A stretch of 64,000 nt of DNA from a virus (lineage: Duplodnaviria; Heunggongvirae; Uroviricota; Caudoviricetes), in the IMG/VR virus record IMGVR_UViG_3300025015_000015. One strand, given 5' to 3'. This document shows positions 11,519-60,126 of the stretch, one piece after another. The translations under genes were made by a program, and so were the position numbers. Within the stretch, counting starts at the first letter, position 1; the number at the start of each line of letters is the position of its first letter. The notes beneath the pieces are model-generated. The model saw nothing but the letters and a program-made list of their open reading frames with translations. It was not told the origin of the DNA and did not search any database.

Positions 11519-12697
11519 ATGGGCCTTGATGTTGGAAGTCAAACTGTTTCAATAATTTATCATGCAGTTGGAAGTAGTTCGGTAGTGAATTACAGAAGTA
11601 AGGGAATTATTAAAACTGGAATATATTCAGGTGGATATTTAACTATAGTAGATTCTGATCATGCTTTAGTTTCTCCATTTGTATGTGAAGTTTGTGATGC
11701 ATCTCATCAAGTAAGAGTGGAGACAACTGTTGCTGTTAATATTGCCGTTTCATCTGCTACTCCCTATATTGTTATTCGATGGTCCTATACTGGATCATCC
11801 ACTAATGACTATGCAGAAATTTTGGCTGTTGCTACACCATCTACTTATGATATTGTTATATGTAAATGTATTTTTACTGGTGGTGGAGCATTAAATGGGT
11901 TTTCCTATTCTGATACTACTTATCCAAGAGTTATTCCAAATGTATTAGACTTATACTTAAAAGTAGAACCTACTGATAATGGTGATCTTAGAGTTAGGAT
12001 TAGAGCAGGATTTATTCACACCACTACTGGGTATATTTTTGTTCCTGAACAAACATCCGATTTGTTTACTGCTCCATCAGCTAATAGTAAAATTTATTTA
12101 GTTTATGTTAATCCTACTACCGGTACTGTTGCTATCGATAGTACAGGATCGGAAGCTGTATCACCCATTGCTCCAGGATATGATGGTAATATAGTTCTTG
12201 CTGAAGTTACTCTTGCCAGCACCGATACTGCTGTAACAATTGATAAGATTAGAGATGTTAGAAATTTCATCTGTAGACCAATTGGAGTTGATGATTCAAC
12301 AATAGAATTCGTTGATGGAAAATTACAAATTAAAGCTGCTGGTGTATCTTATTCTCGTATAAAAGATGTTTATGATAGTGGGTGGTTTGCTACAACAATA
12401 GGTGCATCTTATACTAAAACTCACAGCCTTGGTAGTGTTGCCTTAATAATTGAAGTTCTCTTTGCTCCTGATTCTGGAGGAAGTCCAGATTTAACTAAGG
12501 TAACTAAAATTACAGCATGTGATTTAATGGCTGATTGGGGTAATATGGATGTTGGATGTGTTGTCCAGGAAATTACTACCACACAATTAATAGTTCTTAC
12601 AGGGGGAAGTTATGTAGCATTTAGAGTAGCTATTGGTGGAAATACTACTAAATATACATCTGGACATTATCGTATTCTGGCAACAAGAATAGCATAA
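11519..12697 (+). CDS. tail fibre / receptor-binding protein, paralogue A
   Basis: Shares the blocks SPF-x-x-x-x-x-D-x-x-x-QV-x-V, ATPY-x-V-x-RWSY, LFAPDSGGSPDLTK, YTSGHYRILA with the downstream gene; preceded by a TATAAATA box and an AAGGAG RBS. Confidence 0.45.
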   Translation: MGLDVGSQTVSIIYHAVGSSSVVNYRSKGIIKTGIYSGGYLTIVDSDHALVSPFVCEVCDASHQVRVETTVAVNIAVSSATPYIVIRWSYTGSSTNDYAEILAVATPSTYDIVICKCIFTGGGALNGFSYSDTTYPRVIPNVLDLYLKVEPTDNGDLRVRIRAGFIHTTTGYIFVPEQTSDLFTAPSANSKIYLVYVNPTTGTVAIDSTGSEAVSPIAPGYDGNIVLAEVTLASTDTAVTIDKIRDVRNFICRPIGVDDSTIEFVDGKLQIKAAGVSYSRIKDVYDSGWFATTIGASYTKTHSLGSVALIIEVLFAPDSGGSPDLTKVTKITACDLMADWGNMDVGCVVQEITTTQLIVLTGGSYVAFRVAIGGNTTKYTSGHYRILATRIA

Positions 12698-12709: not shown

Positions 12710-13891
12710 ATGGGCACTACTAATCACGGAACTCAAATTGTAGCAGTTGGTTATTTTATGGATGCACTGTCAGGTAATCAAAACAAAACAACACACAATA
12801 TAATTGTTCGTGGTATATATAATGGTGGATATCTTACAAGAGTAAGTGATTCTGAAGTTACACTTTCCCCATTTACGGTGTCAATTGGTGATTCAACTTA
12901 TCAAGTGTCGGTTACTTCTTCAGCTAATGCCACAGTAAACAATACAACTCTTGATAGTGGTACTATTTCTGCAGCTACTCCATATTTGGTTATGCGTTGG
13001 TCATATGCTGCTGTTGTTAATAATTATGTTGAAATTCATGCTATTGCTAATGTTGCTGCTGCTCTTACTAATGATATCATAATTGGTAAATGTGTCTTCG
13101 CTGGAGCTACTTTAACATCGTTTGATTATAGTAATAGGACTAACCCAGTTGTTGCAAATAAGTTCTTGAAAGTTGAAGCTGAAGATACTCCTTCTATGTA
13201 TGTTAGAATTAAAGGTGGTATCGTTCAAATTGGTAGTGCATATGTTAATGTTGCGGACCAATTACTTGGTCCATTTTCTGCTCCTTCTGCTCCCAATTCA
13301 CGAATTGATTTAATTTATATAAATATTACAGGGGTTTCAAGTATTTTGGCTGGAACTGCTGCTGTAAGTCCAACTGCCCCTAGTTATGCCGGAAAGTTAG
13401 TTGTTGCTGAAATTACCATCGCAAATGGTACAGCTTCTATTACTAATAGCTTAATAAGGGATGTTAGAGCATTTTTATGCTCAAGTGTAATTCCGGATGA
13501 TTTATCACTTCAGTTTAATGCTACAAGCGGAAAGCTTGAAGTTAAAGATCCATTTAATGCTATTAAATATGACAGCGGATGGTTTACAGTAGCGAAAGCT
13601 ACTTCGTATACAAGAACACATAATCTTGGAAGTTATTTATTATCAATAATCGTTCTTTTTGCACCTGATTCAGGTGGAAGTCCGGATCTTACTAAAATAA
13701 CAGAAGTTACAAAAGATCTCATTGCAGATTGGACTAACTTTGATGTTGGTTGTTTAGTTCAGGATGTTAATACTACTCAATTATCAGTTGTTACTGGTTC
13801 TGATTATGTAGCTTTTAGAACAGTAGCTAATGGAACTACTACTAGATATACATCGGGACATTATAGAATTTTGGCTGTTAAAATTGCTTAA
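12710..13891 (+). CDS. tail fibre / receptor-binding protein, paralogue B
   Basis: Tandem paralogue of 11519-12697, same length (393 vs 392 aa) and a conserved C-terminus ...YTSGHYRILAVKIA. Confidence 0.45.
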   Translation: MGTTNHGTQIVAVGYFMDALSGNQNKTTHNIIVRGIYNGGYLTRVSDSEVTLSPFTVSIGDSTYQVSVTSSANATVNNTTLDSGTISAATPYLVMRWSYAAVVNNYVEIHAIANVAAALTNDIIIGKCVFAGATLTSFDYSNRTNPVVANKFLKVEAEDTPSMYVRIKGGIVQIGSAYVNVADQLLGPFSAPSAPNSRIDLIYINITGVSSILAGTAAVSPTAPSYAGKLVVAEITIANGTASITNSLIRDVRAFLCSSVIPDDLSLQFNATSGKLEVKDPFNAIKYDSGWFTVAKATSYTRTHNLGSYLLSIIVLFAPDSGGSPDLTKITEVTKDLIADWTNFDVGCLVQDVNTTQLSVVTGSDYVAFRTVANGTTTRYTSGHYRILAVKIA

Positions 13892-13952: not shown

Positions 13953-14996
13953 TTGAAAGGACATTTGATGCAATACGGCAAAATGAACGTACTAATTGGT
14001 AATTCATTTGGAAGCGAAGGTAAAGGAAATGTTGCTGCATATCTTGGAAGGAAACATATAAAAGAATTAACAGTTTGTGCTTATGTTGGTGGTCCTAATT
14101 CCGGTCATCAGTTTATCGATTATAATGGTGAGGTTCAAACTGTTAAGATGTTATCAGTATGTGGAATTTTAGCTAAAAATTCCGTTATTGTATTATCTTC
14201 TGGTTGTATTATTGATGTTGCTCGTCTTGAAGAGGAAATTAAGAAGTTTGATGTTGCTGGTCGTCTTCTTATTTCTCCAACAGCAGTGATTGTTGATCAG
14301 TATTGTAAAGATTATGAAAAGGAACATTTAAGATATATTTCATCCACATTCCAGGGTACGGGTGCTGCGTTGGGTCTTAAAGCAATGAGATCTGAAAAGA
14401 TTAAGTTGGCAAAAGATATTCCATCATTAGCAAAATATATTTGTACTAATATTCCAGAAATTATTATTAGTAATTTAAATGATAATGGTACTGGTTTAAT
14501 GGAAGTTAGTCAGGGTATCCACTTGGGTATAGATTCTTCCTTTTATCCGTATTGTACTTCTAGACCAGTAAATGTTGGTCAAGCTTTTGCCTATCTTGAT
14601 ATTCCTTGTAGTTTGGTTGGAGATGTGATTGGTATAACAAGATCTTATTTTATTAGAGTTGGTAGTGTTGCGGGTGGATCATCTGGACCAATGTATGAGG
14701 ATTCCCAAGAACTTTCTTGGGAGGAAATTTCTAAGAGGATTGGTCGTGATGTTATGGAGCTTACGACTGTTACAAAGCGAGTTCGTCGTGTTTTTGAGTT
14801 TTCTAAGATAGGTTTTGAATTGGGTGTTCGAAGGAACGATATTAATACAGTATTTTTAACTTTTTGTGATTACCTTAGTGATAGCGAGAAGTTAGAAATG
14901 GAAGAATATCTTAAATCCAATAAATTTAACTTTAAGGAAATATTCTTTGTTTCAGGTTTTGGTAAATTTAGTTTAAATATTAAACAAATAAAATAA
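13953..14996 (+). CDS. purZ: adenylosuccinate synthetase family enzyme, truncated PurZ-like form (2-aminoadenylosuccinate synthase candidate)
   Basis: PurA motifs in order: P-loop GNSFGSEGKGN (PurA GTQWGDEGKGK with Asp13 replaced by Ser), GGPNSGH (PurA GGHNAGH), MEVSQGIHLGIDSSFYPYCTS (PurA [21 protein letters not shown]), RSYFIRVGS (PurA KAYSTRVGAG), TTVTKRVRR (PurA TTGRRRR). At 347 aa it lacks the PurA C-terminal region, as PurZ enzymes do. Confidence 0.6.
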   Translation: MKGHLMQYGKMNVLIGNSFGSEGKGNVAAYLGRKHIKELTVCAYVGGPNSGHQFIDYNGEVQTVKMLSVCGILAKNSVIVLSSGCIIDVARLEEEIKKFDVAGRLLISPTAVIVDQYCKDYEKEHLRYISSTFQGTGAALGLKAMRSEKIKLAKDIPSLAKYICTNIPEIIISNLNDNGTGLMEVSQGIHLGIDSSFYPYCTSRPVNVGQAFAYLDIPCSLVGDVIGITRSYFIRVGSVAGGSSGPMYEDSQELSWEEISKRIGRDVMELTTVTKRVRRVFEFSKIGFELGVRRNDINTVFLTFCDYLSDSEKLEMEEYLKSNKFNFKEIFFVSGFGKFSLNIKQIK

Positions 14997-15156: not shown

Positions 15157-15906
15157 ATGGGAATACTAATACCCAACGAAAAATCTTCAAGAATATCCGT
15201 TAGACATAGTATTCCATTAGCAAAGGATGTATCAGAAGTTTTAAATGGGAAACCTTGGGACGGTCATCGTTGTTTGATAATTGGAGGTGGAGCAAGTCTG
15301 GAACAAGTTCCACCTTCTATTGTTTCCGGTGAATTATCAATAGGAATCAATAAAGCATTTCAGAAGTATACCACAAAAATTAACTATTCAATGGATTCTG
15401 TATTCTACGAATTAGTAAGCAAAGTTCCAAGCAGTTACAATTCAGATCCGAATCAATATAAACTTCATGAAGATTGGATGCTTTATAAGGGAATGAAGTT
15501 ATTTTTAAGATTAAATAAGGAATATAAATTTGATCCATCAGTATTTTATATTAATTCATTAACTGACAAAAAGATATCCTACGACCTAAGAAAAGGTATT
15601 TATCCATCAAATAATTCCGGTGGTGGAGCTATTATGCTTGCCGTGGCTCTTGGGGCAAGAAAAATAGGTCTTTTGGGTTTTGATATGACGTTTCTAAGAG
15701 AAACTGGGAAAACTCATTTTCATAATGGGTATAAAAATCAAAACGTTGGTAAATTCCAAGATAAATTGGATAAGTTTAATAAGTTAATATGTGAATTGGC
15801 TCCTTTAATATATGCTGAAGGTGTTGAAGTGTATAATCTTAATTTGAACAGTAATTTAAATTGTTTTAAGAAGATTACTGTGGAAGAATTTTTTAAAATT
15901 TGTTAA
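15157..15906 (+). CDS. DUF115 / MptE-like (motility-accessory-factor-like) putative sugar transferase
   Basis: CLIIGGGASL ... GINKAF ... GGGAIMLAVALGARKIGLLGFDM pattern typical of the DUF115 Rossmann fold. Confidence 0.4.
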   Translation: MGILIPNEKSSRISVRHSIPLAKDVSEVLNGKPWDGHRCLIIGGGASLEQVPPSIVSGELSIGINKAFQKYTTKINYSMDSVFYELVSKVPSSYNSDPNQYKLHEDWMLYKGMKLFLRLNKEYKFDPSVFYINSLTDKKISYDLRKGIYPSNNSGGGAIMLAVALGARKIGLLGFDMTFLRETGKTHFHNGYKNQNVGKFQDKLDKFNKLICELAPLIYAEGVEVYNLNLNSNLNCFKKITVEEFFKIC

Positions 15907-16757
15907 TGGATTTTTCTAAGAATATGCATATACAATTCCCAATCAACAACGGACAACGCTATTACAAAATTCATTATGAGTTTGTACATAGAGTTTTTGA
16001 AGCTGGAAGTGCACAAATAGAATTAAAACAAATTCCAATGGTTAATACGTCTAATTTTAAATGTAAAATTGATGGAAAGGATGTTATTTTTTGTTTTTCA
16101 GATGATAATAACAGTTTTGGAATAAATGATCCCGAATTAAATAATATACCGGTATTTAAATTCCATTATGGACAAGGGAATTTATTTGGAAATAATGTAT
16201 TTCCGTTTTCTCCAATTAGTTTCCATAACTGGAATGAATATTATGAAATGGAAAAGGAAATAAATTATCAATGCTCAGGAGTGATATTAAATAATCAAAG
16301 AGCTTATGGTGGAGCAGTTGATAGAAGAAATAATGTTAGAGGTATTTTATTTAAAGAATTTGGAAGTAGGGTTGATTTCAGTTTAACTGATCAAAAAAGC
16401 TACTGGAGAAAAATAAATTCAGCATTAGTTTCAATACATGTTCCAGGATTTTGTAATAATATGTTGGATCGTGCTCAACTTCAGATGATGGCATTTGGAT
16501 GTTGTACAATATCCCCATATTTGTATGAAATTGTTCCATATGGTGCTGAAGATGGAAGTAAACCAATGTCATTACAACCATGGTTACACTATATTAGATG
16601 TAAAGATGATTATTCTGATCTTGTTGAAAAAATTAAATGGTGTGAATCAAACAAAAATAAATGTGTAGAAATTGGACAAAATGCAAAAAGAGCATTTCTT
16701 CACTTTCTTACTCCGTGGAATTTATGTAGAGACATAAATTCAATAGTTAATATATAA
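15906..16757 (+). CDS. hypothetical protein inside the glycan island
   Basis: ORF with ATG at 15906 overlapping the upstream stop (TAATG); no recognisable motif. Confidence 0.25.
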   Translation: MDFSKNMHIQFPINNGQRYYKIHYEFVHRVFEAGSAQIELKQIPMVNTSNFKCKIDGKDVIFCFSDDNNSFGINDPELNNIPVFKFHYGQGNLFGNNVFPFSPISFHNWNEYYEMEKEINYQCSGVILNNQRAYGGAVDRRNNVRGILFKEFGSRVDFSLTDQKSYWRKINSALVSIHVPGFCNNMLDRAQLQMMAFGCCTISPYLYEIVPYGAEDGSKPMSLQPWLHYIRCKDDYSDLVEKIKWCESNKNKCVEIGQNAKRAFLHFLTPWNLCRDINSIVNI

Positions 16758-16768
16758 AGGAAAATAAA

Positions 16769-17305
16769 TTGAAAAAATTATCCATTTTAATATGTTCTCT
16801 TCGCGAAAGGGAAAAGTCCCTTAACAAATTGTTAGAAGTTATTGAACCACAAAGGACCAGTGAAGTTGAAATTATACTTGATACCGATAATGGAGAAGTG
16901 ACTACAGGATTTAAACGTAATAGACTTCTTAATGCTGCTTTTGGAGAGTACATTTCATTTATTGATGATGATGATTTGGTATCCAATGATTACATAGTAA
17001 AAATTCTTAAAGCTATAGAAACTAGTCCTGACTGTTGTGGTATGGAAGGATTAATAACTTTTCAAAAGAAAAACATTACCCGTAAATTTATTCATACAAT
17101 ACAATGCTCAGAATGGTATGAGAAAGATCACATTTATTATAGATGTCCTAATCATCTGTCACCGGTTAAAAGAATTCATGCTCTTGCCACAAAATTTCCT
17201 GATATAACTGTCGGTGAAGATCATGATTATTCCACTAGGTTATTCCCACTTTTAAAAACAGAAGTTTATATTAATAATCCAATATATTATTATTTAACAA
17301 ATTGA
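16769..17305 (+). CDS. glycosyltransferase family 2 (GT-A fold)
   Basis: N-terminal LSILICSLRE... with a DxD-type motif FIDDDDLV. Confidence 0.55.
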   Translation: MKKLSILICSLREREKSLNKLLEVIEPQRTSEVEIILDTDNGEVTTGFKRNRLLNAAFGEYISFIDDDDLVSNDYIVKILKAIETSPDCCGMEGLITFQKKNITRKFIHTIQCSEWYEKDHIYYRCPNHLSPVKRIHALATKFPDITVGEDHDYSTRLFPLLKTEVYINNPIYYYLTN

Positions 17306-17315
17306 GGAAGGAAAG

Positions 17316-17996
17316 ATGGAAATATTGTTTAAATATCCAACAAGAGGAAGGCCACAATGGTTTAAACGAACATTGGAAATGTACTATTCATTATTAAGTG
17401 GTAAATTTAAGTACAAATTTTTGATAGCAATGGATATAGATGATGAATCAATGAATAATAATGAAATGAGGGAATTTCTTGATTCAAAATCTAATTTAAA
17501 GTATTATTATTCATATCATAAATCAAAAATTGAAGCTGTAAATAGTGGTATGGATATTTTCAGTGATTTTGATATCCTTGTTTTAGTTTCTGATGATATG
17601 ATTCCAATAGTAAAAGGATATGATCAAATAATTGTTGAAAGTATGAAAAAATATTTCCCGGATACTGATGGAGCATTACATTTCAACGATGGATTTCTTG
17701 GTAAAGACAAAACTATAACTCTAAGTATAATGGGAAGAATATTATATCAAAGAATTGGTTACATTTATCATCCTGATTATAAGAGTTTTTGGTGTGATAA
17801 TGAATTTACTGATGTTGTAACACAACTTGGAAAAGTTGTTTATTTTCCTAATGTTGTTATAAAACATGATTGGAAGGGATTTGAAAAAATAAATAAAGAT
17901 AAATTATACGTTAGAAATTCAGCAATGGGTAAAGGTGATGATGTGATATATGCAAAAAGAAGGGATTTAGGATTTCCTAAGGAAAGTATTCTATGA
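17316..17996 (+). CDS. glycosyltransferase-like protein (GT-A-like)
   Basis: Acidic motif LVLVSDDMIP after a Rossmann-like N-terminus; context. Confidence 0.3.
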   Translation: MEILFKYPTRGRPQWFKRTLEMYYSLLSGKFKYKFLIAMDIDDESMNNNEMREFLDSKSNLKYYYSYHKSKIEAVNSGMDIFSDFDILVLVSDDMIPIVKGYDQIIVESMKKYFPDTDGALHFNDGFLGKDKTITLSIMGRILYQRIGYIYHPDYKSFWCDNEFTDVVTQLGKVVYFPNVVIKHDWKGFEKINKDKLYVRNSAMGKGDDVIYAKRRDLGFPKESIL

Positions 17997-18766
17997 TTAA
18001 AAATGAAGTATTCGCAACTTGGTGCATCAGTAATAATATCGGAGATGCACTAAATGTGTGGATGATAAATAAGATATCAGGGTTTGATCCAATATATGTT
18101 GAGAAAAACGAATATTGTAATAAATATATGTGTATTGGATCAATTTTGAATTGGGCCGATAGGAATACTATTGTTTGGGGTGCGGGAATAGCCAATGCTA
18201 ATGATCCTGTTGATCCAAGAGCGGATATAAGAGCAGTTAGAGGTCCCATTAGTAGAAATAGAGCCATAGCCTGTGGAGCACAATGTCCTGAAGTATTTGG
18301 AGATCCATCTATTCTTCTTCCTAAAATGTTCAATCCAGAGGTAAAGAAGAAATATGAATTGGGAATAATACCTCACTATGTTGATCAATTTACCGTTCAT
18401 AATAGTTGGTTATCTAATTGTGGTGATATAAAAATAATAAATGTTTTTGATTCGGTTGAACAGTTTATACTACAAATAAAGTCTTGTAAAAAGATAATAT
18501 CCAGTTCTCTTCATGGATTAATTATATCCGATGCATACGGAATTCCATCAAAATGGTTCCAGGCTACAAACAAAATTGGTGGGGATGACACCAAATTTCA
18601 TGATTACTTTTTATCCGTTGGATATGAAATATACAAACCATTGAAGTTTTATGATTTGATAAATGAAAATGTTGACATTATATGTAAAGAAATAGAAGAA
18701 AGATATATAAAAATTGATCTAAAAGGATTGTTAGATGCGTGTCCTTTAATGAAAGGAATAAAATAA
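17993..18766 (+). CDS. polysaccharide pyruvyl transferase family protein
   Basis: N-terminal NNIGDAL motif (N-x-GD-x-L) typical of the PS_pyruv_trans family. Confidence 0.45.
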   Translation: MIKNEVFATWCISNNIGDALNVWMINKISGFDPIYVEKNEYCNKYMCIGSILNWADRNTIVWGAGIANANDPVDPRADIRAVRGPISRNRAIACGAQCPEVFGDPSILLPKMFNPEVKKKYELGIIPHYVDQFTVHNSWLSNCGDIKIINVFDSVEQFILQIKSCKKIISSSLHGLIISDAYGIPSKWFQATNKIGGDDTKFHDYFLSVGYEIYKPLKFYDLINENVDIICKEIEERYIKIDLKGLLDACPLMKGIK

Positions 18767-18767
18767 T

Positions 18768-20193: not shown

Positions 20194-20206
20194 TTGGAAT
20201 TAAATA

Positions 20207-21527: not shown

Positions 21528-21529
21528 AT

Positions 21530-22336: not shown

Positions 22337-22337
22337 A

Positions 22338-22862: not shown

Positions 22863-22863
22863 T

Positions 22864-26538: not shown

Positions 26539-26790
26539 ATGTCCGAAACTATTGGAAATTTATTTGATAAATTAACTATTGTTAATCTTAAAATTTGGAG
26601 ACAAGAAGATATAAAACGATCTTCAAATGATGATCATGAAATTGCCGAAGCTACTAGAAAAACTAATGTATTAAATCAACAAAGAAATGATTTAGTACAG
26701 GAAATCGATGAGCTTATAAATGGATTAATAAATGGAACAAAGAAAATGAAAACTTATAACCAAGGTGGTACTAAGAGTTATGGAAATTAA
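26539..26790 (+). CDS. small coiled-coil protein
   Basis: ORF only. Confidence 0.2.
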   Translation: MSETIGNLFDKLTIVNLKIWRQEDIKRSSNDDHEIAEATRKTNVLNQQRNDLVQEIDELINGLINGTKKMKTYNQGGTKSYGN

Positions 26791-27646: not shown

Positions 27647-27656
27647 GGATGTAATA

Positions 27657-28337: not shown

Positions 28338-28348
28338 AAGGATATATT

Positions 28349-29988: not shown

Positions 29989-30002
29989 TTAAGGAAACTT
30001 CC

Positions 30003-41882: not shown

Positions 41883-42248
41883 TTATTTTACTCTATCTTT
41901 ATTGCCGGGAAGATCATCAAGATCATGACGGTTATTTTCTTCAAAATGCATTAATGCAAAAGACCAAAAAGCAATAGCTGCTAAATGATCTTCAGTTCTA
42001 TCCCCTTCTAGATGTTCAGACCAATGACGTGCAATTTTATTCATAGCTACTGACATTGGAATACCCTTTTCCCAATTTCTATCACCTTTTTGTATATTTC
42101 CAGCTTCATACCTAAGAGCCAATCTTCGTAGTCCTTTTGTACTAATTAAATGATATGCACCACGACCGGTTTGATCACTACATATTGCACCAGATGGATT
42201 GGTTTGTACAGGTTCTTCTTTAGTTTTATTAATTATTTTATTTGACAT
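41883..42248 (-). CDS. MazG-like all-alpha dNTP pyrophosphohydrolase (dATP/dGTP diphosphohydrolase, MazZ-like) candidate
   Basis: LRRLALRYEAGNIQKGDRNWEKG ... HLEGDRTEDHLAAIAFWSFALMHFE resembles the phage dATP/dGTP diphosphohydrolase N-terminal domain pattern (R-x-A-x-x-YE-x-GA-x-KYG-x-x-NW-x-KG). Confidence 0.35.
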   Translation of the reverse strand: MSNKIINKTKEEPVQTNPSGAICSDQTGRGAYHLISTKGLRRLALRYEAGNIQKGDRNWEKGIPMSVAMNKIARHWSEHLEGDRTEDHLAAIAFWSFALMHFEENNRHDLDDLPGNKDRVK

Positions 42249-42249
42249 A

Positions 42250-42393
42250 TTTAATTATTTCCTCATCTTTTAAATCGGGCTTAACAATTTGATTATTTTC
42301 TGCTTTAGAAGCTTTTAATGCCTCTTTAAGTTCTTTTTCTGCTTGCTCCTGTCGCCATTGTAATGTTCTAAGCATTTTCTTTTCACGGCTCAT
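42250..42393 (-). CDS. small basic ORF (47 aa)
   Basis: AAAGGAG RBS; ORF below the track threshold. Confidence 0.2.
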
Positions 42394-42394
42394 T

Positions 42395-42560
42395 TTATTT
42401 CTCCTTTCCACAATTATGATTTAAACATAAAACTTGAAAACCTGGAGGAAAATTCATTTTTCTTAAATATCTATAAAAATAAGAACTACCACCAATTTCC
42501 TTCTTTTGTATATTTCCTCCCCAATTTATATGATCTATAGAAAGAATTCTTATATCAGTT
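42395..42560 (-). pseudogene. remnant of the HNH endonuclease catalytic domain (IDHINWGGN...NFPPGFQVLCLNHNCGKE)
   Basis: Matches CIDHINNDRY...NNFPPGFQVLCFNCNFKK of the intact copy at 48880-49629; no start codon or N-terminal domain. Confidence 0.45.
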
Positions 42561-42571
42561 TCACCACACTA

Positions 42572-51515: not shown

Positions 51516-52558
51516 ATTCGTTCAACTTCTTCTTTTAATTTATCCTCAAGATTTTCGGATTCTATTTTTTTAATCCAATTTGACATTATCTTCTTTTCAC
51601 CCCAAAGTTCAATTTCTGCACCTTTTGTTTTTGCCTCTTTTTCTCCATTTTGAAATTCTGATATAAAATATAAAGAAGATGCAATATTATCCAAACCATA
51701 ATCAAAGAGCACTCTAAATCTTCCGGATCTCATTGGTGAAGCCACCTTATTCTTTGTTACTTCAAATTTACACCAGAATCCAACTACTTTCTTTGATGTA
51801 TTCTCTATACGACCATCACTCCTTAAATAAATTCTTACTGAACTATAAAATTCAAGTGCTCTTCCACCACTTACAACTTCTGCCCTTCCCATATTAAGAT
51901 TGTCACGGGTTTGATCGATTACAAATAAAGATATATTATTATCAGCAATGGATCTTAAACATTTTCTAAACGCTGTAGATACAATCCTTGGTTTTGTAAG
52001 ACCCATTGTTTTTTCCATTAAATCATCTTTCTTTTCTGCTTCTGATGGTAATGCCGTCCACGAATCAACTGCTACAATCCTTGATCCTGTTGTCTTTTCC
52101 TTAGCCTTATCTTCATTATCCTCCTCATCTGACTCCTTATCCTTTTTAATCTTCTTTTTCTTATAAAGTGATGGAAGATATTTATCAAAAAAGGTTTCGA
52201 CTGTATCAGGAGCTTCGGTATCAATTAACCTAAAGTCCTTATTTGTTGCATCAAGTCCATACATCTTTGCAAAATTAGCATCAAATGTACGTTCTATATC
52301 AACAAAATCAGCTAACATTCCCTGTCTTAAGGCATATCCAAGAATAGTAGTGGCAAGAACAGTCTTACATGTACTAAATCCACCATATACCTGAATAACA
52401 CGGCCAACAGGAATTCCACCAGGAAGTTGATTAGCTATTGCTAAATCAAGTACGGTACAGCCGGTGGAGCACCAATGTTTAATCGCAGGAAGATCTTCAA
52501 CATTACACTTCTTTACAGCTTCACCGGCAGCATCCAAATCCACTGTATCATCATTCAT
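51467..52558 (-). CDS. RecA/UvsX-like recombinase
   Basis: GGIPVGRVIQVYGGFSTCKTVLAT matches RecA [22 protein letters not shown]. Confidence 0.8.
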   Translation of the reverse strand: MNDDTVDLDAAGEAVKKCNVEDLPAIKHWCSTGCTVLDLAIANQLPGGIPVGRVIQVYGGFSTCKTVLATTILGYALRQGMLADFVDIERTFDANFAKMYGLDATNKDFRLIDTEAPDTVETFFDKYLPSLYKKKKIKKDKESDEEDNEDKAKEKTTGSRIVAVDSWTALPSEAEKKDDLMEKTMGLTKPRIVSTAFRKCLRSIADNNISLFVIDQTRDNLNMGRAEVVSGGRALEFYSSVRIYLRSDGRIENTSKKVVGFWCKFEVTKNKVASPMRSGRFRVLFDYGLDNIASSLYFISEFQNGEKEAKTKGAEIELWGEKKIMSNWIKKIESENLEDKLKEEVERMWKEAYHTEERKKRVW

Positions 52559-52911
52559 TACTTATTCTCCTGCTTTGCAATTTCTGTTAACCTATCTTTA
52601 TCTTGTGGCCAGAAATAAACTTTCATATCTTCATTTTCAGCTATACTTTTTTCATTCGTAGCTCCAGTTGATTTTTCCCAATCAGGAATCATTACAACTA
52701 GATCACATCTTTTCATTAACTCAATAACACCATTTAAAAAATTCTCATCTGGAATATCACCATCAAACAATCCTGAATTCTTATGTGGACAAACTACCAC
52801 AAATCCCAATTTCCAAAGTTCCAAAGCCACAGCTTCAGCTTTATTAATATTTTCAACTATTCCACGAATAGTTTTAGCTCGATATGGTCCAGCAACATAT
52901 GCTATCTTCAT
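52558..52911 (-). CDS. DUF4406 / nucleoside 2-deoxyribosyltransferase-like protein
   Basis: MKIAYVAGPYRA...VVVCPH...CDLVVMIPDWEKSTGATNE. Confidence 0.5.
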   Translation of the reverse strand: MKIAYVAGPYRAKTIRGIVENINKAEAVALELWKLGFVVVCPHKNSGLFDGDIPDENFLNGVIELMKRCDLVVMIPDWEKSTGATNEKSIAENEDMKVYFWPQDKDRLTEIAKQENK

Positions 52912-56104: not shown

Positions 56105-56515
56105 TTAACCAATTGATATTTTACCATCCTTTTCAATACTGATTTTAAATGGATAAATTTGTTGTAGACTTTCAACTTTGTATAAAACAGGACGAGTTTC
56201 TCCATCCAAAAGAACCATTGTCCAAAATCCATCATCATTAACTTCAATACATGTATGCGGTTCAAGTCTATATCCAACTCTTCCTTCATCATCTCCATCA
56301 ATAATTTTTATTCTACTCTCCTTTCTATCTGTTTTACTTGATAGATTAATAAATTGCAAATCATCAATTCCTTTTATGGCTTCATTAAATAAAGAATCAA
56401 TTACTTTATTTCCATGTTTAGATCTAAATTGTCTTTTTATAAAAAATATAACTTTTTCGTAATACTTTTTAAACATTAATTCTCCTATAATTTTAACGGT
56501 TCTAATGAATACCAA
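56105..56515 (-). CDS. hypothetical protein
   Basis: ORF only. Confidence 0.25.
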   Translation of the reverse strand: MVFIRTVKIIGELMFKKYYEKVIFFIKRQFRSKHGNKVIDSLFNEAIKGIDDLQFINLSSKTDRKESRIKIIDGDDEGRVGYRLEPHTCIEVNDDGFWTMVLLDGETRPVLYKVESLQQIYPFKISIEKDGKISIG

Positions 56516-59500
56516 TCTTTACCAATTTCCCATTCAATATTAGATTTAACACCTTCCTGCCATTTAAATCTATTAGATTTAAAAATTTCATCTGAAAAAC
56601 TAACTAATTCTTCAACTTCATCAGGAACAGCATCAAATGTAGCACTATCATGAATTTCAATACAAAGTCTCGACTTTAATTTACGTTTAATAATTTCTTC
56701 ATCAATTTTACTTAATGCATCAAGAAACAAATGAAAACTAGAATTATGTACAATATATCCATCACACATAAACTTTTGCTCTGGACAATTAATAACATCA
56801 TACATTTCCTCTGTATCATTAAAAACATTAATAGATTTTACGGTTTCTGTATTATATCCTTTCAAATTTTTATATGTTAGTTGTGTTGATACTTTATCCT
56901 GTTTATCTTTATTAATGAATCCAATTTTCTCAAGGAAGGTATAATTATGTCTTCTTCTTATCCATAATTTAGTTAATTTATCATACCTATGAAGTCTTGT
57001 TTGTATACCAAAAAGGATAAATGCCTGTTGTAAATCCTCTGGAACAGTTGAATTTGAATATTTTTTACCAAATGTTATATTTATATTTGATTTCCCATCT
57101 CTTTTATCAACTGATACTCCACCATCACCATCAGTATATCCACTTAGAAATCCTCTTAACAAATCAGAAGAACTAAATATATAATCATCAATTCTATCAC
57201 GAAGACACAATAGTCTAATCTGTTCGGTAAGAGTTTTACTATGTATCGTTAAATTAAACATTGGTTTTCTGTTTTCTTTATCCCTATTAACATGTTTAAT
57301 AATATATTTCCAGCCACATTTATCAAATATTCTAGTTATAATTGGAAGAATAGATTCTTCATGTTCAGCCACAAACCATGTTAATTTGGGTTTGGTTTCT
57401 GGAACATGTCCATCGGAAGCTAATCTACCAAGAATTAATCCACGATCAAACTTACTGTTTATTTGTTCCAGTGAATATAAATGTTTTGCCCTTCTATGGG
57501 TAATACTAGAAACAACTTTAATATTAGGTAATTTTTTATTGGAATCCCACAAATTACACGAATTAGATATAAGAATTCTTTCAACCTTTACAAATTCAGA
57601 AGCTTTCTTCCATTTAGTATTTCCATTAATTGCATTAATTGTCATAAATTTATGATCCGGTGATGTAATAATACTTTGACCGTTCATTAATGTTATAATT
57701 TGCCTCTGTTTTAATCCACTTGAAACTACATCAACCAACACAAAATTATCTCCATTCCAAACATGTCTTTTTCCAACACAGTCTTTTATTGATTTATAAC
57801 CATCTTCCTTAGTTAATATTTTACAATTACCATTTAAACAGCCTTGAATAGGATTATTATACAAATCATAAACACTAAGAATTCCAGGACGTTTAAATCC
57901 GGTTAATCCACGGAAGTATCCATGTTCATTATAAAATTTAACTATATTTTTTTGCCATTTATAAATATCAATATATTCGGCAAAAAATTCATCCTGTGTT
58001 TTTTCTATGTGTTTTTTAGTTATTCCATCATTAATAAAAGATTCATATTTAGCTATTGCATTTGGTTTTGAGCCGTAAATTGAAGCAAACACAAAACCAT
58101 TTTTACCACCATATCTTTGATCTTTTGTTACTTCATCTACTGATATTTGATATAATCTAGCTGTCCATCTTTTATGCGGATCAATTCCTTCATTTAATTG
58201 TCTAATTAATTCTTTATCCCTGGAAGACATGGCATTAATACTAAGTTCCAAACCACTATAATCACCTTCTAGAAATACATTTCCTGGACTTGATTCAACA
58301 ATCCTCCTAAATGTCATCATCTCCTTATCATGTTTAAATACAGCCTGAATTGGAGGATTATCAGCAGAAGATCTATATGTTGGAACTACATTTAAATTAT
58401 AATTAGAATGAATTTTCCCATCAGGAAATCTGCATTTTTCATATAAATCTAATTTTGTAATAATTCCAGATGATCCTGCTATTTTTCTATATCTAAATAC
58501 TTTATCAATAAATTCTTTTGCATCTTTATTTTTAATATGTCCATAAGATTCTTGAAGAGATTCAGCACTAGTTGAATTTTTTCCTCCACCGGTTTTTATA
58601 AAACATGGAACTTTACACTTATCAAATAAAATTGATCCTATTTGTGCTGTTGCATTAATATTAAATATCTTTCCGGAATCAATTTCATATTCTTTTACTA
58701 TTTTTAATTCTGATAATTCTTTAATTATTCTTTCAGCTTCTTCTTTATATTTGATTTTAAGGGAATTCAATTCATTTATATTAATACAAACACCAGTTTG
58801 CTTCATTCTTGCAAGAACAACAGCATTTTTATTCCAAAATTTTGAAAAATCTAATAATTTTTGATCTTCCTTTAAAATTTCCAATTGATTATAATATTGT
58901 GCTAAGGTATATCTTGAATCATAACAAGCATATTCAGAATATTCATTTATATTAAGTTTTCCCATTTTAGACTTATCACCAATATCATATTCATGGCCAT
59001 AAGCCCTATAGACTTGAAATTTAAGTCCAGTAGTCCCCATACTACAATTGATGACATGCTCAGTAATCATTGTATCATGAATAAAATTAACTATCTCTAC
59101 ACCAAATACCCCATGTGTCCAACACCATTCCATATTTAAATTTTGAATAACCTTTGGTGCAGAACTTGTTATAAAATCCGTAAATGCCTTTTTAACTTCT
59201 TCAAGCCTATTACCATATGGACTTTTTTGTGTTATTGGATCAATATAATCAATTGGAATACATGTTCCAAAATTAATATCATTTGATAATTGTGCAGTTA
59301 ATATTCTTGAATCTTTATCATATGGATTTAAATTCTGTGTTTCATAATCAAGTGCAACAGGTTTAATAGATTTAGACATTTCATTAATAAATGTAATAGC
59401 TTCATCAGCATTAAGTATTAATTTATTTCCGGATTTATCAAATGATTTTGGAAGTGGTGAACCATAAACTGACAAAACTCTAGCTAAATCATTGGAAAAT

Positions 59501-60126
59501 ACATTAGTATGATCTACACCATTTCCCTCATTATTATGAAGTATATGAGAAGGATGAAATAAACATCCAACCCAACAATTGTATTCATGACTAGGAAATA
59601 CTAAACCATGAGCTAATGATGCTGAAGGTGAAGGTATGGATTTAGGTTTAAGTATGGCTTGAATTGCCTGTGTTCCAAAACACAATATGAATTCGGGATT
59701 AACTTCCTCAATATCTTTAAGAAGGTTTGATCTGCAGCACATTATTTCTTTTGGGGATGGATCTCTATCATGATGGGTTACTGGATCTTTCCCAGGGTAG
59801 CAGCGGAGCACATTGGTGCGAACACAATCATTATCAAGATCTATTCCAAAGATATCTAATTGATGACGTGCAAAATATCCGGATCCACCAACAAACGGAA
59901 TTCCTCTTTCATCCTCTGTTTTTCCGGGGCATTGACCTATGACTAATATTCTTTTGCGTCCTCTTCCAAATCGCTTCATTTTTGGACTTCTACATTTGTT
60001 ACATAGCCCACAGGTATCACAGTCGTATATCACTGCCTTTTTGGGTGATTGGGTAGATTTCTTCTTTACTATTTCATCAGCAGCAAAGAAAAAAGCTTTC
60101 TGTTGAAATTGTTCAAGTTCACTCAT
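56485..60126 (-). CDS. family A (PolA-type) DNA polymerase with an N-terminal family-4 uracil-DNA-glycosylase-like domain, a 3'-5' exonuclease domain, and a LAGLIDADG intein inserted in the palm
   Basis: UDG4: CDTCGLCNKC plus GQCPGKTEDERGIPFVGGSGYF. Exo: ALDYETQNL, HDTM, YACYDSRY. Polymerase: motif A LEGDYSGLELS, motif B RYGGKNGFVFASIYG, motif C IEIHDSATFD. Extein junction NNPIQG|C...HN|S. Confidence 0.8.
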   Translation of the reverse strand: MSELEQFQQKAFFFAADEIVKKKSTQSPKKAVIYDCDTCGLCNKCRSPKMKRFGRGRKRILVIGQCPGKTEDERGIPFVGGSGYFARHQLDIFGIDLDNDCVRTNVLRCYPGKDPVTHHDRDPSPKEIMCCRSNLLKDIEEVNPEFILCFGTQAIQAILKPKSIPSPSASLAHGLVFPSHEYNCWVGCLFHPSHILHNNEGNGVDHTNVFSNDLARVLSVYGSPLPKSFDKSGNKLILNADEAITFINEMSKSIKPVALDYETQNLNPYDKDSRILTAQLSNDINFGTCIPIDYIDPITQKSPYGNRLEEVKKAFTDFITSSAPKVIQNLNMEWCWTHGVFGVEIVNFIHDTMITEHVINCSMGTTGLKFQVYRAYGHEYDIGDKSKMGKLNINEYSEYACYDSRYTLAQYYNQLEILKEDQKLLDFSKFWNKNAVVLARMKQTGVCININELNSLKIKYKEEAERIIKELSELKIVKEYEIDSGKIFNINATAQIGSILFDKCKVPCFIKTGGGKNSTSAESLQESYGHIKNKDAKEFIDKVFRYRKIAGSSGIITKLDLYEKCRFPDGKIHSNYNLNVVPTYRSSADNPPIQAVFKHDKEMMTFRRIVESSPGNVFLEGDYSGLELSINAMSSRDKELIRQLNEGIDPHKRWTARLYQISVDEVTKDQRYGGKNGFVFASIYGSKPNAIAKYESFINDGITKKHIEKTQDEFFAEYIDIYKWQKNIVKFYNEHGYFRGLTGFKRPGILSVYDLYNNPIQGCLNGNCKILTKEDGYKSIKDCVGKRHVWNGDNFVLVDVVSSGLKQRQIITLMNGQSIITSPDHKFMTINAINGNTKWKKASEFVKVERILISNSCNLWDSNKKLPNIKVVSSITHRRAKHLYSLEQINSKFDRGLILGRLASDGHVPETKPKLTWFVAEHEESILPIITRIFDKCGWKYIIKHVNRDKENRKPMFNLTIHSKTLTEQIRLLCLRDRIDDYIFSSSDLLRGFLSGYTDGDGGVSVDKRDGKSNINITFGKKYSNSTVPEDLQQAFILFGIQTRLHRYDKLTKLWIRRRHNYTFLEKIGFINKDKQDKVSTQLTYKNLKGYNTETVKSINVFNDTEEMYDVINCPEQKFMCDGYIVHNSSFHLFLDALSKIDEEIIKRKLKSRLCIEIHDSATFDAVPDEVEELVSFSDEIFKSNRFKWQEGVKSNIEWEIGKDWYSLEPLKL
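56743..57840 (-). mobile_element. 366-aa intein with LAGLIDADG homing endonuclease (two LAGLIDADG boxes) within the polymerase
   Basis: Starts with Cys after NNPIQG; block B TSPDH; LILGRLASDGHV and FLSGYTDGDGGV; ends ...VHN followed by Ser. Confidence 0.7.

What the first reader, a model, noticed from the sequence alone, without database searches (positions are those of the whole stretch)
13953..14996. PurZ-like truncated adenylosuccinate synthetase: possible 2-aminoadenine (Z) genome
The 347-aa ORF carries the PurA family motifs in order (GGPNSGH, QGIHLGIDSSFYPYCTS, IRVGS, TTVTKRVRR), but the P-loop reads GSEGKGN rather than GDEGKGK, so the catalytic Asp13 of PurA is replaced by Ser. It also lacks roughly 85 C-terminal residues. 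Both traits match what I recall as the distinguishing features of PurZ, which makes 2-aminoadenylosuccinate from dGMP. Elsewhere in the window there is a MazG-like dATP/dGTP diphosphohydrolase candidate (41883-42248, MazZ-like) and a proofreading family A polymerase (56485-60126). DpoZ polymerases are also PolA enzymes with a 3'-5' exonuclease. No HD-type dATPase (DatZ) is seen in this window, and purZ lies far from the polymerase, unlike the compact Z clusters described so far.
Basis: partly seen in the sequence, partly recalled or inferred. Interest (0 to 1): 0.85.

Follow-up and report, generated by a model that had tools for sequence, protein, structure and literature searches.

The report
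Divergent PurZ in a contractile-tailed phage
This uncultured groundwater phage carries a divergent version of PurZ, the enzyme other phages use to replace adenine with 2-aminoadenine in their DNA, but it pairs it with an unusual set of helper genes, so it is a credible but unproven new variant of a known system.

Summary
The ORF is real. Its likely start is the ATG at 13968 (342 aa). It is a PurZ-type enzyme, not a canonical PurA.

Its best matches by sequence and by predicted fold are phiVC8 and S-2L PurZ. It has Ser in place of PurA Asp13. It also has the published PurZ residues for the dGMP 2-amino pocket (F12, T262) and for ATP (F295, Y298).

It is divergent. It forms a single metagenomic cluster at 50% identity, at most 41% identical to any other cluster. 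It scores 175.7 bits against the NCBIfam PurZ model, below the cut-off of 300. It also lacks a Pro that every other homolog examined keeps.

The helper set is not the classic one. No DatZ, MazG-type MazZ or Dut was found in the 64 kb window, or within 10 kb of purZ in about eight relatives. The clade instead carries a standalone PF18909/DUF5664 protein, the family of a characterised dATP/dGTP pyrophosphohydrolase. The polymerase is an intein-containing UDG-exonuclease-PolA fusion, not a DpoZ. An NDT-fold gene is a possible DmtZ analog.

The virion has a T4-like baseplate. purZ appears to have moved horizontally between two phage lineages.

Z-DNA is inferred, not shown. PurZ-based prediction is already common (over 2,000 viruses). 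Verdict: new variant of a known kind, moderate interest.

The parts
13968..14996 (+). purZ-like gene, predicted N6-succino-2-amino-2'-deoxyadenylate synthase. The ORF is open from the TTG at 13953; the likely start is the ATG at 13968 (342 aa). The database protein P0001 starts at 13983 (337 aa).
   Evidence: PF00709 8e-34. PHROG 1211 9e-51. PDB best match phiVC8 PurZ 1.6e-39. AlphaFold pLDDT 89 with TM 0.85 to 6FKO. Residues F12, S14, Y244, W252, T262, F295 and Y298 (phiVC8 numbering) are all of PurZ type.
41883..42248 (-). Standalone PF18909 (DUF5664-type) protein, 121 aa. Predicted dATP/dGTP (and dUTP) pyrophosphohydrolase that would deplete dATP and supply dGMP.
   Evidence: PF18909 at 41.4 bits, cut-off 27; 30% identity over 86 aa to Wayne gp50, pairwise E = 3e-9. 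Wayne gp50 itself is PF18909 at 110.8 bits; the Wayne enzyme's activity, from PMC12884076; homologs lie near purZ in 8 of 12 clade loci.
42249..42571 (.). 'Empty site' between the sigma-like gene (42572-43198) and the PF18909 gene. The relative L012 carries [122 aa]-purZ-[76 aa] at this position.
   Evidence: Collinear block from window 46.4 to 41.9 kb matches L012 0.1-6.1 kb. Only a 57-aa ORF lies here in the window.
52558..52911 (-). NDT-superfamily protein (DUF4406/DUF7768/DUF1937), 117 aa. A candidate nucleotide N-glycosidase or deoxyribosyl transferase, and a possible functional analog of DmtZ. Its link to the Z pathway is speculative.
   Evidence: PF14359 at 45.8 bits. Y5, D70, S81, G83 and E87 are invariant in the family; pLDDT 93, with best folds nucleoside 2'-deoxyribosyltransferase 8PQR, 1T1J (TM 0.77), DNPH1 and BcmB/MilB; no sequence similarity to Wayne DmtZ.
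56485..60126 (-). Replicative polymerase: family 4 UDG-like domain, 3'-5' exonuclease and family A polymerase, interrupted by an intein (1213 aa; 847 aa after splicing). It is not a DpoZ.
   Evidence: DpoZ model NF038380 29 bits against a cut-off of 500. Closest to Klenow (27% identity). Motif B reads FASIYG, keeping Tyr.
56743..57840 (-). LAGLIDADG intein inside the polymerase gene (aa 763-1128), bounded by Cys at its start and His-Asn/Ser at its end, inserted between motifs B and C.
   Evidence: PF14890 and PF14528; intein N-terminal model; boundaries read directly from the sequence.

Best explanation
The gene encodes a functional but divergent PurZ. It would condense dGMP with aspartate, using ATP or dATP as phosphate donor, to give N6-succino-2-amino-2'-deoxyadenylate. 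Host PurB and host kinases would then convert that to dZTP.

[quoted passage not shown] This lowers the competing dATP pool and feeds PurZ. It would do the jobs that DatZ and MazZ share in classic PurZ phages.

The UDG-exo-PolA replicates the genome. Its own preference for Z is not required, as in cyanophage S-2L, whose PrimPol does not discriminate.

The NDT-fold protein may destroy dAMP, as DmtZ does, but that step is speculative.

Shown: homology, residue identities, fold, and gene co-occurrence. Inferred: substrate specificity, the activity of the helper proteins, and above all the presence and extent of 2-aminoadenine in the virion DNA.
For: PurZ identity:
- PDB sequence ranking is phiVC8 PurZ 1.6e-39, then S-2L PurZ 2.7e-28, archaeal short PurA 4e-21, PurZ0 (7VF6) 1e-15 and E. 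coli PurA 1e-13.
- The fold ranking runs in the same order, with TM 0.85, 0.84, 0.81, 0.78 and then 0.70-0.75.
- The best PHROG and the best NCBIfam family are both PurZ.
- Residues F12, S14, Y244, W252, T262, F295 and Y298 match PurZ. They differ from PurZ0 (M295, Q/S298) and from E. coli PurA (D14, G262, A295, W298). S14, W252, T262, F295 and Y298 are invariant in all 44 clade members. The roles of these residues come from bioRxiv 10.1101/2025.10.22.683976.
- The clade is monophyletic with bootstrap 100 and falls on the PurZ side of the tree.

Helper genes:
- The PF18909 protein scores above its cut-off and is homologous to the characterised Wayne DUF5664.
- In relatives, purZ sits one gene away from PF18909 (L012), or beside a UDG-PolA with PF18909 6 kb away (L013).
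- PF18909 homologs of the window protein occur near purZ in 8 of 12 clade loci and in 0 of 71 loci from other PurZ lineages.

Selection: PurZ is 54-58% identical between phage lineages whose RecA, PolA and SNF2 proteins are only 21-28% identical. That points to strong constraint together with horizontal transfer of a working gene.

Precedent: S-2L achieves full substitution without a DpoZ (PMC10201439).
Against: - No chemical evidence for Z exists.
- The protein fails the curated NCBIfam PurZ cut-off (175.7 against 300 bits).
- Pro233, invariant in 200 of 200 other homologs, is Phe here and varies within the clade. The P-loop reads GSEGKG rather than GSTGKG.
- Deep tree nodes have bootstrap below 45, and E. 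coli PurA was the only outgroup.
- DatZ, the enzyme credited with excluding adenine in PurZ phages, was not found.
- The polymerase has no DpoZ signature.
- The window PF18909 score is modest (41 bits), and PF18909 proteins also occur in phages with canonical DNA.
- Only 64 kb of a genome that is probably about 100 kb was examined.
Confidence: 0.7

Rival explanations
1. PurZ is active, but the genome is only partly substituted, or Z synthesis serves another purpose such as perturbing the nucleotide pool. The reason would be that, without DatZ or a Z-selective polymerase, dATP is not excluded efficiently.
For: - DatZ profile searches find nothing in the window or the clade loci, even at E <= 10.
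- The polymerase is not a DpoZ and keeps Tyr in motif B.
- Wayne DUF5664 has a lower catalytic rate than the Dut-type enzymes.
- In PurZ phages the published model assigns dATP removal to DatZ.
Against: - PurZ0 phages lack DatZ and are treated in the literature as Z-genome phages. They rely on pyrophosphohydrolases, including DUF5664.
- A DatZ or Dut could lie in the unseen part of the genome.
- Strong conservation of PurZ across horizontal transfer suggests a function under heavy selection.
Confidence: 0.2
2. The enzyme belongs to the PurZ lineage but uses a different substrate, for example GMP, dIMP or another 6-oxopurine nucleotide. It would then make a different product or a different DNA or RNA modification.
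For: - The clade is a distinct subfamily below the NCBIfam PurZ cut-off.
- It has lost Pro233 near the catalytic site, which is otherwise invariant, and has Ser for Gly256 in all 44 members.
- It sits next to a large glycan-biosynthesis cluster in the window lineage.
Against: [quoted passage not shown]
- The partner gene belongs to the dATP/dGTP hydrolase family.
- The position next to the glycan cluster is not conserved in the clade.
Confidence: 0.07
3. It is an ordinary auxiliary purA that boosts AMP synthesis from IMP during infection.
For: It matches the PF00709 family. Sources that name it call it 'adenylosuccinate synthase'.
Against: - The catalytic Asp13 is Ser, whereas Asp is 99% conserved in true PurA.
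- The GTP-specificity motif TKLD reads TFCD here.
- All NCBIfam PurA equivalog scores are far below their cut-offs, at 105-149 bits against 368-402.
- PurA structures are the weakest matches.
Confidence: 0.03

Closest known systems
PurZ of Vibrio phage phiVC8 and cyanophage S-2L (PDB 6FKO/6FM1, 7ODX), with the PurZ + DatZ + MazZ (+ DpoZ) Z-cluster
   Same: - Same fold (TM 0.84-0.85).
- Same Ser for Asp13.
- Same residues for the dGMP 2-amino pocket (F12, T262) and for ATP (F295, Y298).
- Similar length, with the same pattern of deletions relative to PurA.
- A dATP/dGTP-hydrolase-family partner gene is present.
   Different: - Only 33-36% identical.
- Below the NCBIfam PurZ cut-off.
- P-loop GSEGKG rather than GSTGKG, Pro233 lost, Gly256 replaced by Ser.
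- No DatZ, no MazG-type MazZ, no DUF550 and no DpoZ found.
- purZ is not in a compact cluster in the window.
- The host phage has a T4-like baseplate and portal, whereas a 2021 paper describes the known Z phages as siphoviruses and podoviruses (PMC8599892 abstract).
PurZ0 systems of Arthrobacter phage Wayne and Gordonia phage Ghobes (PurZ0 + DutZ + DmtZ + DUF5664-1 + DpoZ-1)
   Same: - No DatZ.
- A standalone DUF5664/PF18909 protein. The window protein is detectably similar to Wayne's, but not to the fused Acinetobacter type.
- An NDT-superfamily gene is present in the genome.
- The P-loop has Glu after the Ser.
   Different: - The synthetase has the PurZ-type F295/Y298, not M295/Q298.
- It matches the PurZ0 structure less well (7VF6: E = 1e-15, TM 0.78).
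- No Dut homolog was found.
- The NDT-fold protein shows no sequence similarity to DmtZ.
- The polymerase is not Wayne-type DpoZ.
Cyanophage S-2L replication strategy, with a non-selective polymerase and nucleotide-pool control
   Same: No Z-specific polymerase. Substitution would depend on removing dATP and supplying dZTP.
   Different: S-2L uses a PrimPol and has both DatZ and MazZ-2. This phage has a UDG-exo-PolA and only a PF18909 protein.
UDG-PolA fusions of SPO1, SP-10, SP-15 and N4-like phages (PMC10201439)
   Same: Same architecture: N-terminal family 4 UDG-like domain, then 3'-5' exonuclease, then family A polymerase.
   Different: - At most 26% identical to any isolate's polymerase.
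- Contains an intein.
- Associated here, and in a second lineage, with PurZ rather than with a 5-hydroxymethyluracil pathway. No thymidylate-modifying gene was seen in the window.

Membership tests
PurZ (succino-amino-deoxyadenylate synthase; NCBIfam NF038379) | Homology to the adenylosuccinate synthetase superfamily, with PurZ as the closest characterised relative | tested here: met
   PF00709 8e-34. PDB best matches phiVC8 and S-2L PurZ. Fold TM 0.85 and 0.84. PHROG 1211 9e-51.
PurZ (succino-amino-deoxyadenylate synthase; NCBIfam NF038379) | Ser replaces the catalytic Asp13 of PurA | tested here: met
   FGSEGKG aligns with the FGSTGKG of phiVC8 and the WGDEGKG of E. coli. Ser is present in 44 of 44 clade members.
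PurZ (succino-amino-deoxyadenylate synthase; NCBIfam NF038379) | Residues accommodating the dGMP 2-amino group (F12, T262) and stabilising the adenine of ATP (F295, Y298), phiVC8 numbering | tested here: met
   The window has F, T, F and Y. PurZ0 references have M295 and Q/S298. E. coli PurA has G262, A295 and W298.
PurZ (succino-amino-deoxyadenylate synthase; NCBIfam NF038379) | Score at or above the curated NCBIfam cut-off of 300 bits | tested here: not met
   175.7 bits. This is the best-scoring family but it is below the cut-off.
PurZ (succino-amino-deoxyadenylate synthase; NCBIfam NF038379) | Phylogenetic placement inside the PurZ subgroup rather than PurZ0 or PurA | tested here: inconclusive
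   In the neighbour-joining tree the clade has bootstrap 100 and groups with the PurZ references, with the PurZ0 references outside. The deep nodes have bootstrap of 42 or less, and the only outgroup was E. coli PurA.
PurZ (succino-amino-deoxyadenylate synthase; NCBIfam NF038379) | Pro233 near the catalytic site | tested here: not met
   Phe in the window. Variable within the clade (Pro in 16 of 44). Pro in 200 of 200 other homologs.
PurZ (succino-amino-deoxyadenylate synthase; NCBIfam NF038379) | dGMP + Asp + ATP gives dSMP in vitro, and the virion DNA contains dZ | not testable with these tools
   Requires biochemistry or nucleoside analysis.
PurZ0 | P-loop GSEAKG, M295 and Q/S298, and co-occurrence with DutZ | tested here: not met
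   The window has GSEGKG, F295 and Y298. No Dut/NDT-Dut homolog was found in the window or the clade loci. The PurZ0 structure 7VF6 is a weaker match than PurZ.
Canonical PurA | Catalytic Asp13, the GTP-specificity motif (T/N)KxD, and equivalog-level HMM scores | tested here: not met
   Ser at position 13. TFCD in place of TKLD. TIGR00184 scores 105 bits against a cut-off of 395, and NF002223 scores 109 against 402.
Classic Z-cluster (PurZ + DatZ + MazZ + DpoZ) | HD-domain dATPase DatZ encoded nearby | tested here: not met
   Four DatZ queries and a 47-sequence DatZ profile gave no hit in the window or the clade loci at E <= 10, against about 42 of 71 loci from other PurZ lineages. The remainder of the genome was not seen.
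Classic Z-cluster (PurZ + DatZ + MazZ + DpoZ) | A (d)GTP/(d)ATP pyrophosphohydrolase (MazZ) | tested here: met
   A standalone PF18909 domain at 41.4 bits, cut-off 27. This is the N-terminal domain of the Acinetobacter-type MazZ (PF18909 + PF04447). The MazG-type MazZ-2 and DUF550 are absent.
DpoZ (NF038380, and the Wayne-like clade) | Membership of a DpoZ clade, and Phe at the motif B position equivalent to Klenow Y766 | tested here: not met
   NF038380 scores 29 bits against a cut-off of 500. 7PBK is absent from the top 60 PDB matches. Identity to DpoZs is 20-22%. Motif B reads FASIYG.
DmtZ (NDT-family dAMP hydrolase and dRP transferase) | NDT fold with the Tyr/Asp(Asn)/Glu catalytic triad | tested here: met
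   Best folds are 8PQR, 1T1J, DNPH1 and BcmB/MilB. Y5, D70 and E87 are invariant in the family.
DmtZ (NDT-family dAMP hydrolase and dRP transferase) | Sequence relationship to DmtZ, and conserved linkage to purZ or dutZ | tested here: not met
   No significant BLASTP match to Wayne NDT-Dut. A homolog was found near purZ in only 1 of 12 clade loci, the window itself. The DUF4406 family is widespread.

The most novel reading that the evidence does not exclude
This clade represents a third, independently assembled way of making and replicating Z-DNA. It would consist of a distinct PurZ subfamily that travels horizontally among large low-GC phages, including contractile-tailed ones. dATP exclusion would rest on a standalone DUF5664 pyrophosphohydrolase, possibly with an NDT-fold dAMP-destroying enzyme, in place of DatZ or DutZ. 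UDG-fused family A polymerases would have been recruited as a third DpoZ-like lineage. In support of that last point, 4 of 5 polymerases adjacent to purZ in the sister lineage carry the same motif B Tyr-to-Phe change that is reported as unique to the two known DpoZ families.
Probability: 0.2. Interest if true: 0.7.

Novelty: new variant of a known kind. Interest (0 to 1): 0.5.

Why it matters
If the DNA really contains 2-aminoadenine, four things would follow.

1. Z genomes would extend to phages with T4-like contractile-tail machinery and genomes of roughly 100 kb. Published Z phages are described as siphoviruses and podoviruses.
2. A PurZ-type synthetase would be shown to work without DatZ, relying on a DUF5664-type hydrolase.
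3. There would be a new test case for whether polymerases need any Z preference at all. The sister lineage may also supply a third convergent DpoZ-like polymerase.
4. A compact PurZ plus 121-aa hydrolase pair would be a small toolkit for engineering Z-DNA.

The limits are plain. Over 2,000 viruses have already been predicted to carry Z-DNA from PurZ homology alone. This adds one more prediction, with an unusual context and no chemical proof.

Tried and rejected
- **Nucleotide search of the phage collection.** Megablast of window 5-25 kb found no match. The genome has no close isolate. The portal is at most 27% and the PolA at most 26% identical to any isolate's.
- **First search of the viral contigs.** A single-sequence search for relatives found nothing. 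An alignment-based search was needed.
- **phmmer with reference Z-cluster proteins.** DatZ, MazZ and DpoZ from phiVC8, OH and Bm1 gave no hits against all window ORFs. Profile HMMs for DatZ, OH-type MazZ, DUF6378-type proteins and NDT-Dut also gave no hits in the window or the clade.
- **DpoZ profile discarded.** The DpoZ profile was contaminated by clade polymerases in its seed. I replaced it with pairwise BLAST and motif inspection.
- **The polymerase as a DpoZ.** Considered and rejected.
- **The synthetase as PurZ0.** Considered because of the GSE- P-loop and the VGGPNSGH motif. Rejected on residues 295 and 298, on structure ranking, and on the absence of Dut.
- **The NDT-fold protein as a DmtZ ortholog.** The fold is supported, but there is no sequence similarity and no conserved linkage, so I list it only as a candidate.
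- **The PHROG label 'phosphofructokinase'.** Reference phage genes with this label proved to be DUF6378, not PF18909, so they are not relevant partners here.
- **Promoter and terminator scan around purZ.** It gave fewer promoter-like sites than shuffled sequence and no terminator, so it was uninformative.
- **Literature search.** I found no report of PurZ in contractile-tailed phages or in groundwater phages in the held library. The library is incomplete, and the three 2021 Science papers are not held.
Full report
**1. The observation**

An uninterrupted ORF runs from 13953 to 14996 on the + strand. The clade consensus starts MQxGKxNVL, and an AAGGA element lies a few bases upstream of the ATG at 13968. 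The real start is therefore probably 13968, giving 342 aa. The identical database protein, P0001, was called from 13983 (337 aa).

The protein matches Pfam PF00709 (8e-34). The 'truncation' claim needs correcting. Against E. coli PurA (432 aa), about 39 residues are missing at the C-terminus and about 80 in internal deletions, offset by 24 inserted residues. phiVC8 and S-2L PurZ show the same pattern.

**2. PurZ rather than PurA**

Four independent lines agree.

- *Sequence against solved structures.* phiVC8 PurZ scores 1.6e-39, S-2L PurZ 2.7e-28, the short Pyrococcus PurA 4e-21, PurZ0 (7VF6) 1e-15 and E. coli PurA about 1e-13.
- *Predicted fold.* An AlphaFold model built on a 31-sequence clade alignment has pLDDT 89 and pTM 0.90. 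It gives the same ranking, with TM 0.85, 0.84, 0.81 and 0.78, then 0.70-0.75 for canonical PurAs.
- *Profile libraries.* The best PHROG is family 1211, the PurZ family (9e-51). The best NCBIfam model is NF038379 PurZ (175.7 bits).
[quoted passage not shown] It ranks W252 and Y244 as the most discriminating positions, and notes that S14D abolishes selectivity. In a 256-sequence alignment the window protein has the PurZ residue at all seven positions. PurZ0 references have M295 and Q/S298. E. coli PurA has D14, G262, A295 and W298. The PurA GTP-specificity motif TKLD reads TFCD here.

All 211 phage records matched by tblastn are below 60% identity. Those listed are annotated as adenylosuccinate synthetase, PurA-like or 2-aminooxy adenylosuccinate synthetase, or carry no annotation, and the best ones are PurZ phages.

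**3. How divergent it is**

- The NCBIfam score is below the curated cut-off of 300 bits.
- An exhaustive HMMER search of 1.84 billion cluster representatives shows that the protein's relatives collapse to one full-length 50% cluster (P0011, 64% identical). The next clusters are at 41% or less.
- About 45 clusters at 90% identity make up this clade, at 48-100% identity.
- In a bootstrapped neighbour-joining tree the clade is monophyletic (bootstrap 100). It lies with the PurZ references, and the PurZ0 references fall outside. The deep nodes have bootstrap of 42 or less, and E. coli PurA was the only outgroup, so placement within PurZ is unresolved.
- The P-loop is GSEGKG, against GSTGKG in PurZ and GSEAKG in PurZ0.
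- Gly256 is Ser in 44 of 44 clade members.
- Pro233, near the catalytic site, is invariant in 200 of 200 other homologs. In this clade it varies, and in the window it is Phe. I have no explanation for that.

**4. The genome**

The window is about 31% G+C, with + strand genes up to about 32 kb and − strand genes after that.

The + arm carries three things in order:
- T4-type baseplate proteins: a gp5-like hub, a gp25-type wedge and a gp6-like wedge, together with Ig-domain and paralogous tail-fibre genes.
- purZ.
- A glycan-biosynthesis cluster of about 16 kb.

The − arm carries:
- a T4-like portal and a prohead protease;
- the PF18909 gene;
- an SbcCD-like pair, RecA, the NDT-fold gene and a gp32-like SSB;
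- clamp loader, UDG-exo-PolA and sliding clamp;
- primase and an SNF2 helicase.

No major capsid, sheath or terminase gene was recognised, so the genome is larger than the window. Relatives' contigs reach 98-103 kb. The closest isolates are very distant: portal at most 27% identical, PolA at most 26%. Contigs encoding the identical PurZ come from groundwater metagenomes.

**5. Partners of purZ**

I compared 12 loci of the window's clade with 71 IMG/VR loci from other PurZ lineages, looking within 10 kb of purZ. Because of near-duplicates, the 12 clade loci represent about eight distinct genomes.

| Partner | Other lineages (71) | Window's clade (12) |
|---|---|---|
| DatZ | about 42 | 0 |
| OH-type MazZ | 48 | 0 |
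| phiVC8-type DpoZ | 54 | 2 |
| Homolog of the window PF18909 protein | 0 | 8 |
| Homolog of Wayne DUF5664 | 5 | 6 |
| Homolog of the window UDG-PolA (N-terminal 760 aa) | 11 | 10 |

Profile HMMs built from 47 DatZ, 37 MazZ and 9 NDT-Dut sequences found nothing in the window or the clade loci, even at E <= 10.

The window's 121-aa protein scores 41.4 bits on PF18909 (cut-off 27). It is 30% identical over 86 residues to Wayne gp50, and Wayne gp50 is itself PF18909 at 110.8 bits. That Wayne enzyme hydrolyses dATP, dUTP and dGTP to monophosphates, with kcat for dATP about ten times that for dGTP (PMC12884076). The Acinetobacter-type MazZ is a PF18909 + PF04447 fusion.

So this clade combines a PurZ-type synthetase with the standalone DUF5664 that has so far been described for PurZ0 phages. 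It has no DatZ, no DUF550 and no Dut. That combination is not among those listed in PMC12884076.

**6. Gene order and horizontal transfer**

- L095 (PurZ 79% identical) is a syntenic close relative. It shares the tail-fibre – purZ – glycan-cluster order, and other proteins are 50-90% identical.
- L012 (PurZ 61%) belongs to the same phage family. Its first 6 kb is collinear with window 46.4 to 41.9 kb, except that it has [122 aa]–purZ–[76 aa] between the sigma-like gene and the PF18909 gene. The window has only a 57-aa ORF in that position. Either purZ moved in the window's lineage, or it was inserted in L012.
- L013 and L016–L023 (PurZ 54-58%) are a different phage lineage. They share with the window only RecA, PolA and SNF2, at 21-28% identity, and their purZ lies immediately downstream of a UDG-PolA.

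PurZ is therefore a strong conservation outlier. The simplest reading is horizontal transfer of a constrained, working gene. This fits the published view that Z-pathway genes spread horizontally.

**7. The polymerase**

The gene encodes a family 4 UDG-like domain, a 3'-5' exonuclease and a family A polymerase. A LAGLIDADG intein interrupts it at aa 763-1128.

It is not a DpoZ:
- NF038380 scores 29 bits against a cut-off of 500.
- Its best solved relatives are Klenow fragments, and 7PBK is not in the top 60.
- It is 20-22% identical to DpoZs.

PMC10201439 reports that both DpoZ families uniquely carry Phe at one motif B position (its 'B4'). That paper doubts the residue governs discrimination between A and Z. 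I read B4 as the Klenow Y766 position. That reading is an inference from the paper's description, supported by the fact that all aligned DpoZs have Phe there, apart from the poorly aligned OH sequence. The window polymerase keeps Tyr (FASIYG), and so does L013. Four of the five sister-lineage UDG-PolAs next to purZ have Phe (FGAIFG or FGSIFG). That is an interesting lead for the sister lineage, but it is not evidence about the window.

The exonuclease motifs are intact, apart from Glu at the position of Klenow D424. The UDG domain keeps the HPS motif and a Cys cluster, and reads GQCPG where, from my memory, family 4 UDGs have GE(A/G)PG.

**8. The NDT-fold gene**

ORF 52558-52911 matches DUF4406, DUF7768 and DUF1937. 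A model with pLDDT 93 best matches nucleoside 2'-deoxyribosyltransferases, 1T1J, DNPH1 and the CMP N-glycosidases. Y5, D70, S81, G83 and E87 are invariant in its family.

DmtZ, the dAMP hydrolase and deoxyribose-phosphate transferase of PurZ0 phages, belongs to this superfamily. However, there is no sequence similarity to Wayne DmtZ, no conserved linkage to purZ, and the family is widespread. I list it as a candidate only.

**9. Mechanism, and what is inferred**

The proposed mechanism has four steps. The PF18909 enzyme lowers dATP and supplies dGMP. PurZ converts dGMP, aspartate and ATP to dSMP. Host PurB and kinases complete dZTP synthesis. The UDG-exo-PolA incorporates whatever purine pairs with T, as the non-selective PrimPol does in S-2L.

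Homology, residues, fold and co-occurrence are shown. Every activity is inferred, and so is the presence of Z in the DNA.

**10. Novelty**

PurZ systems are well characterised, and over 2,000 viruses have been predicted to have dZ-DNA from PurZ homology. What is new here:
- a distinct PurZ subfamily;
- an accessory set without DatZ, using a standalone DUF5664, alongside a PurZ-type synthetase;
- association with UDG-PolAs;
- a T4-like contractile-tail chassis, whereas Z phages were described in 2021 as siphoviruses and podoviruses (PMC8599892 abstract).

I rate it a new variant of a known kind, with moderate interest (0.5).

Noticed in passing
window 15157-31082 (+): A glycan-biosynthesis cluster of about 16 kb follows purZ directly. 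It includes MptE-like, GT2, GT11 and GT90-like glycosyltransferases, a polysaccharide pyruvyl transferase, FkbM-type and C-methyltransferases, a GDP-mannose 4,6-dehydratase (473 bits), epimerases, a cupin/FdtA-like protein and a nucleotide-diphospho-sugar transferase. It is conserved in the close relatives L095 and L097. Its target (virion proteins, host surface or DNA) is unknown.
   Followed up: partly
window 11519-12697 and 12710-13891 (+): Two adjacent paralogous tail-fibre-like genes (392 and 393 aa) are 46% identical over 401 aligned positions, with near-identical C-terminal ends. No family in any library matched them.
   Followed up: partly
window 56743-57840 (-): A 366-aa LAGLIDADG intein interrupts the polymerase between motifs B and C. 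Relatives carry inteins in their PolA and in ribonucleotide reductase (L013).
   Followed up: partly
L016, L019, L020 and L023 (UDG-PolA genes immediately upstream of purZ): Four of five sister-lineage UDG-PolAs have Phe at the motif B position I take to be equivalent to Klenow Y766. This change is reported as unique to the two known DpoZ families. The window's own PolA and L013 keep Tyr. It could mark a third convergent DpoZ-like lineage.
   Followed up: partly
window 13968-14996 (+), residues aligned to phiVC8 PurZ P233 and G256: Pro233 is invariant in 200 of 200 other PurZ homologs examined, but it varies in this clade (P, I, Q, W, F and others; Phe in the window). Gly256 is Ser in all 44 clade members. 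This is unexplained.
   Followed up: no
window 42249-42571: Relative L012 has purZ plus two small genes between the sigma-like gene and the PF18909 gene. The window has only a 57-aa ORF there, which indicates relocation or insertion of purZ within this phage family.
   Followed up: yes
window 34652-34811 and 36341-36415 (-): Three tRNA genes are present: Ile (TAT), Leu (TAA) and Lys (TTT). All read A/T-rich codons, which fits the genome's 31% G+C.
   Followed up: no
window about 31800-32900: Genes switch from the + strand to the − strand here and transcription converges. The cumulative GC skew peaks at the same place.
   Followed up: no
window 56485-60126 (-), N-terminal about 230 aa: The UDG-like domain keeps the HPS motif and an N-terminal Cys cluster (CDTCGLCNKC). 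It reads GQCPG where, from memory, family 4 UDGs have GE(A/G)PG. Whether it is catalytically active is unknown.
   Followed up: no
L012 6633-7502 and L013 9181-9990: Relatives encode DNA methyltransferase-like genes close to purZ: N6_N4_Mtase in L012, and a faint D12-class match directly upstream of purZ in L013. An adenine-N6 methylase in a putative Z genome would be worth examining. None was recognised in the window.
   Followed up: no
window 51021-51515 (-) and 31198-31824 (+): A weak HNH-like ORF lies between RecA and the SbcC-like gene. An SPFH/Band 7 protein (55 bits) sits at the end of the + arm.
   Followed up: no
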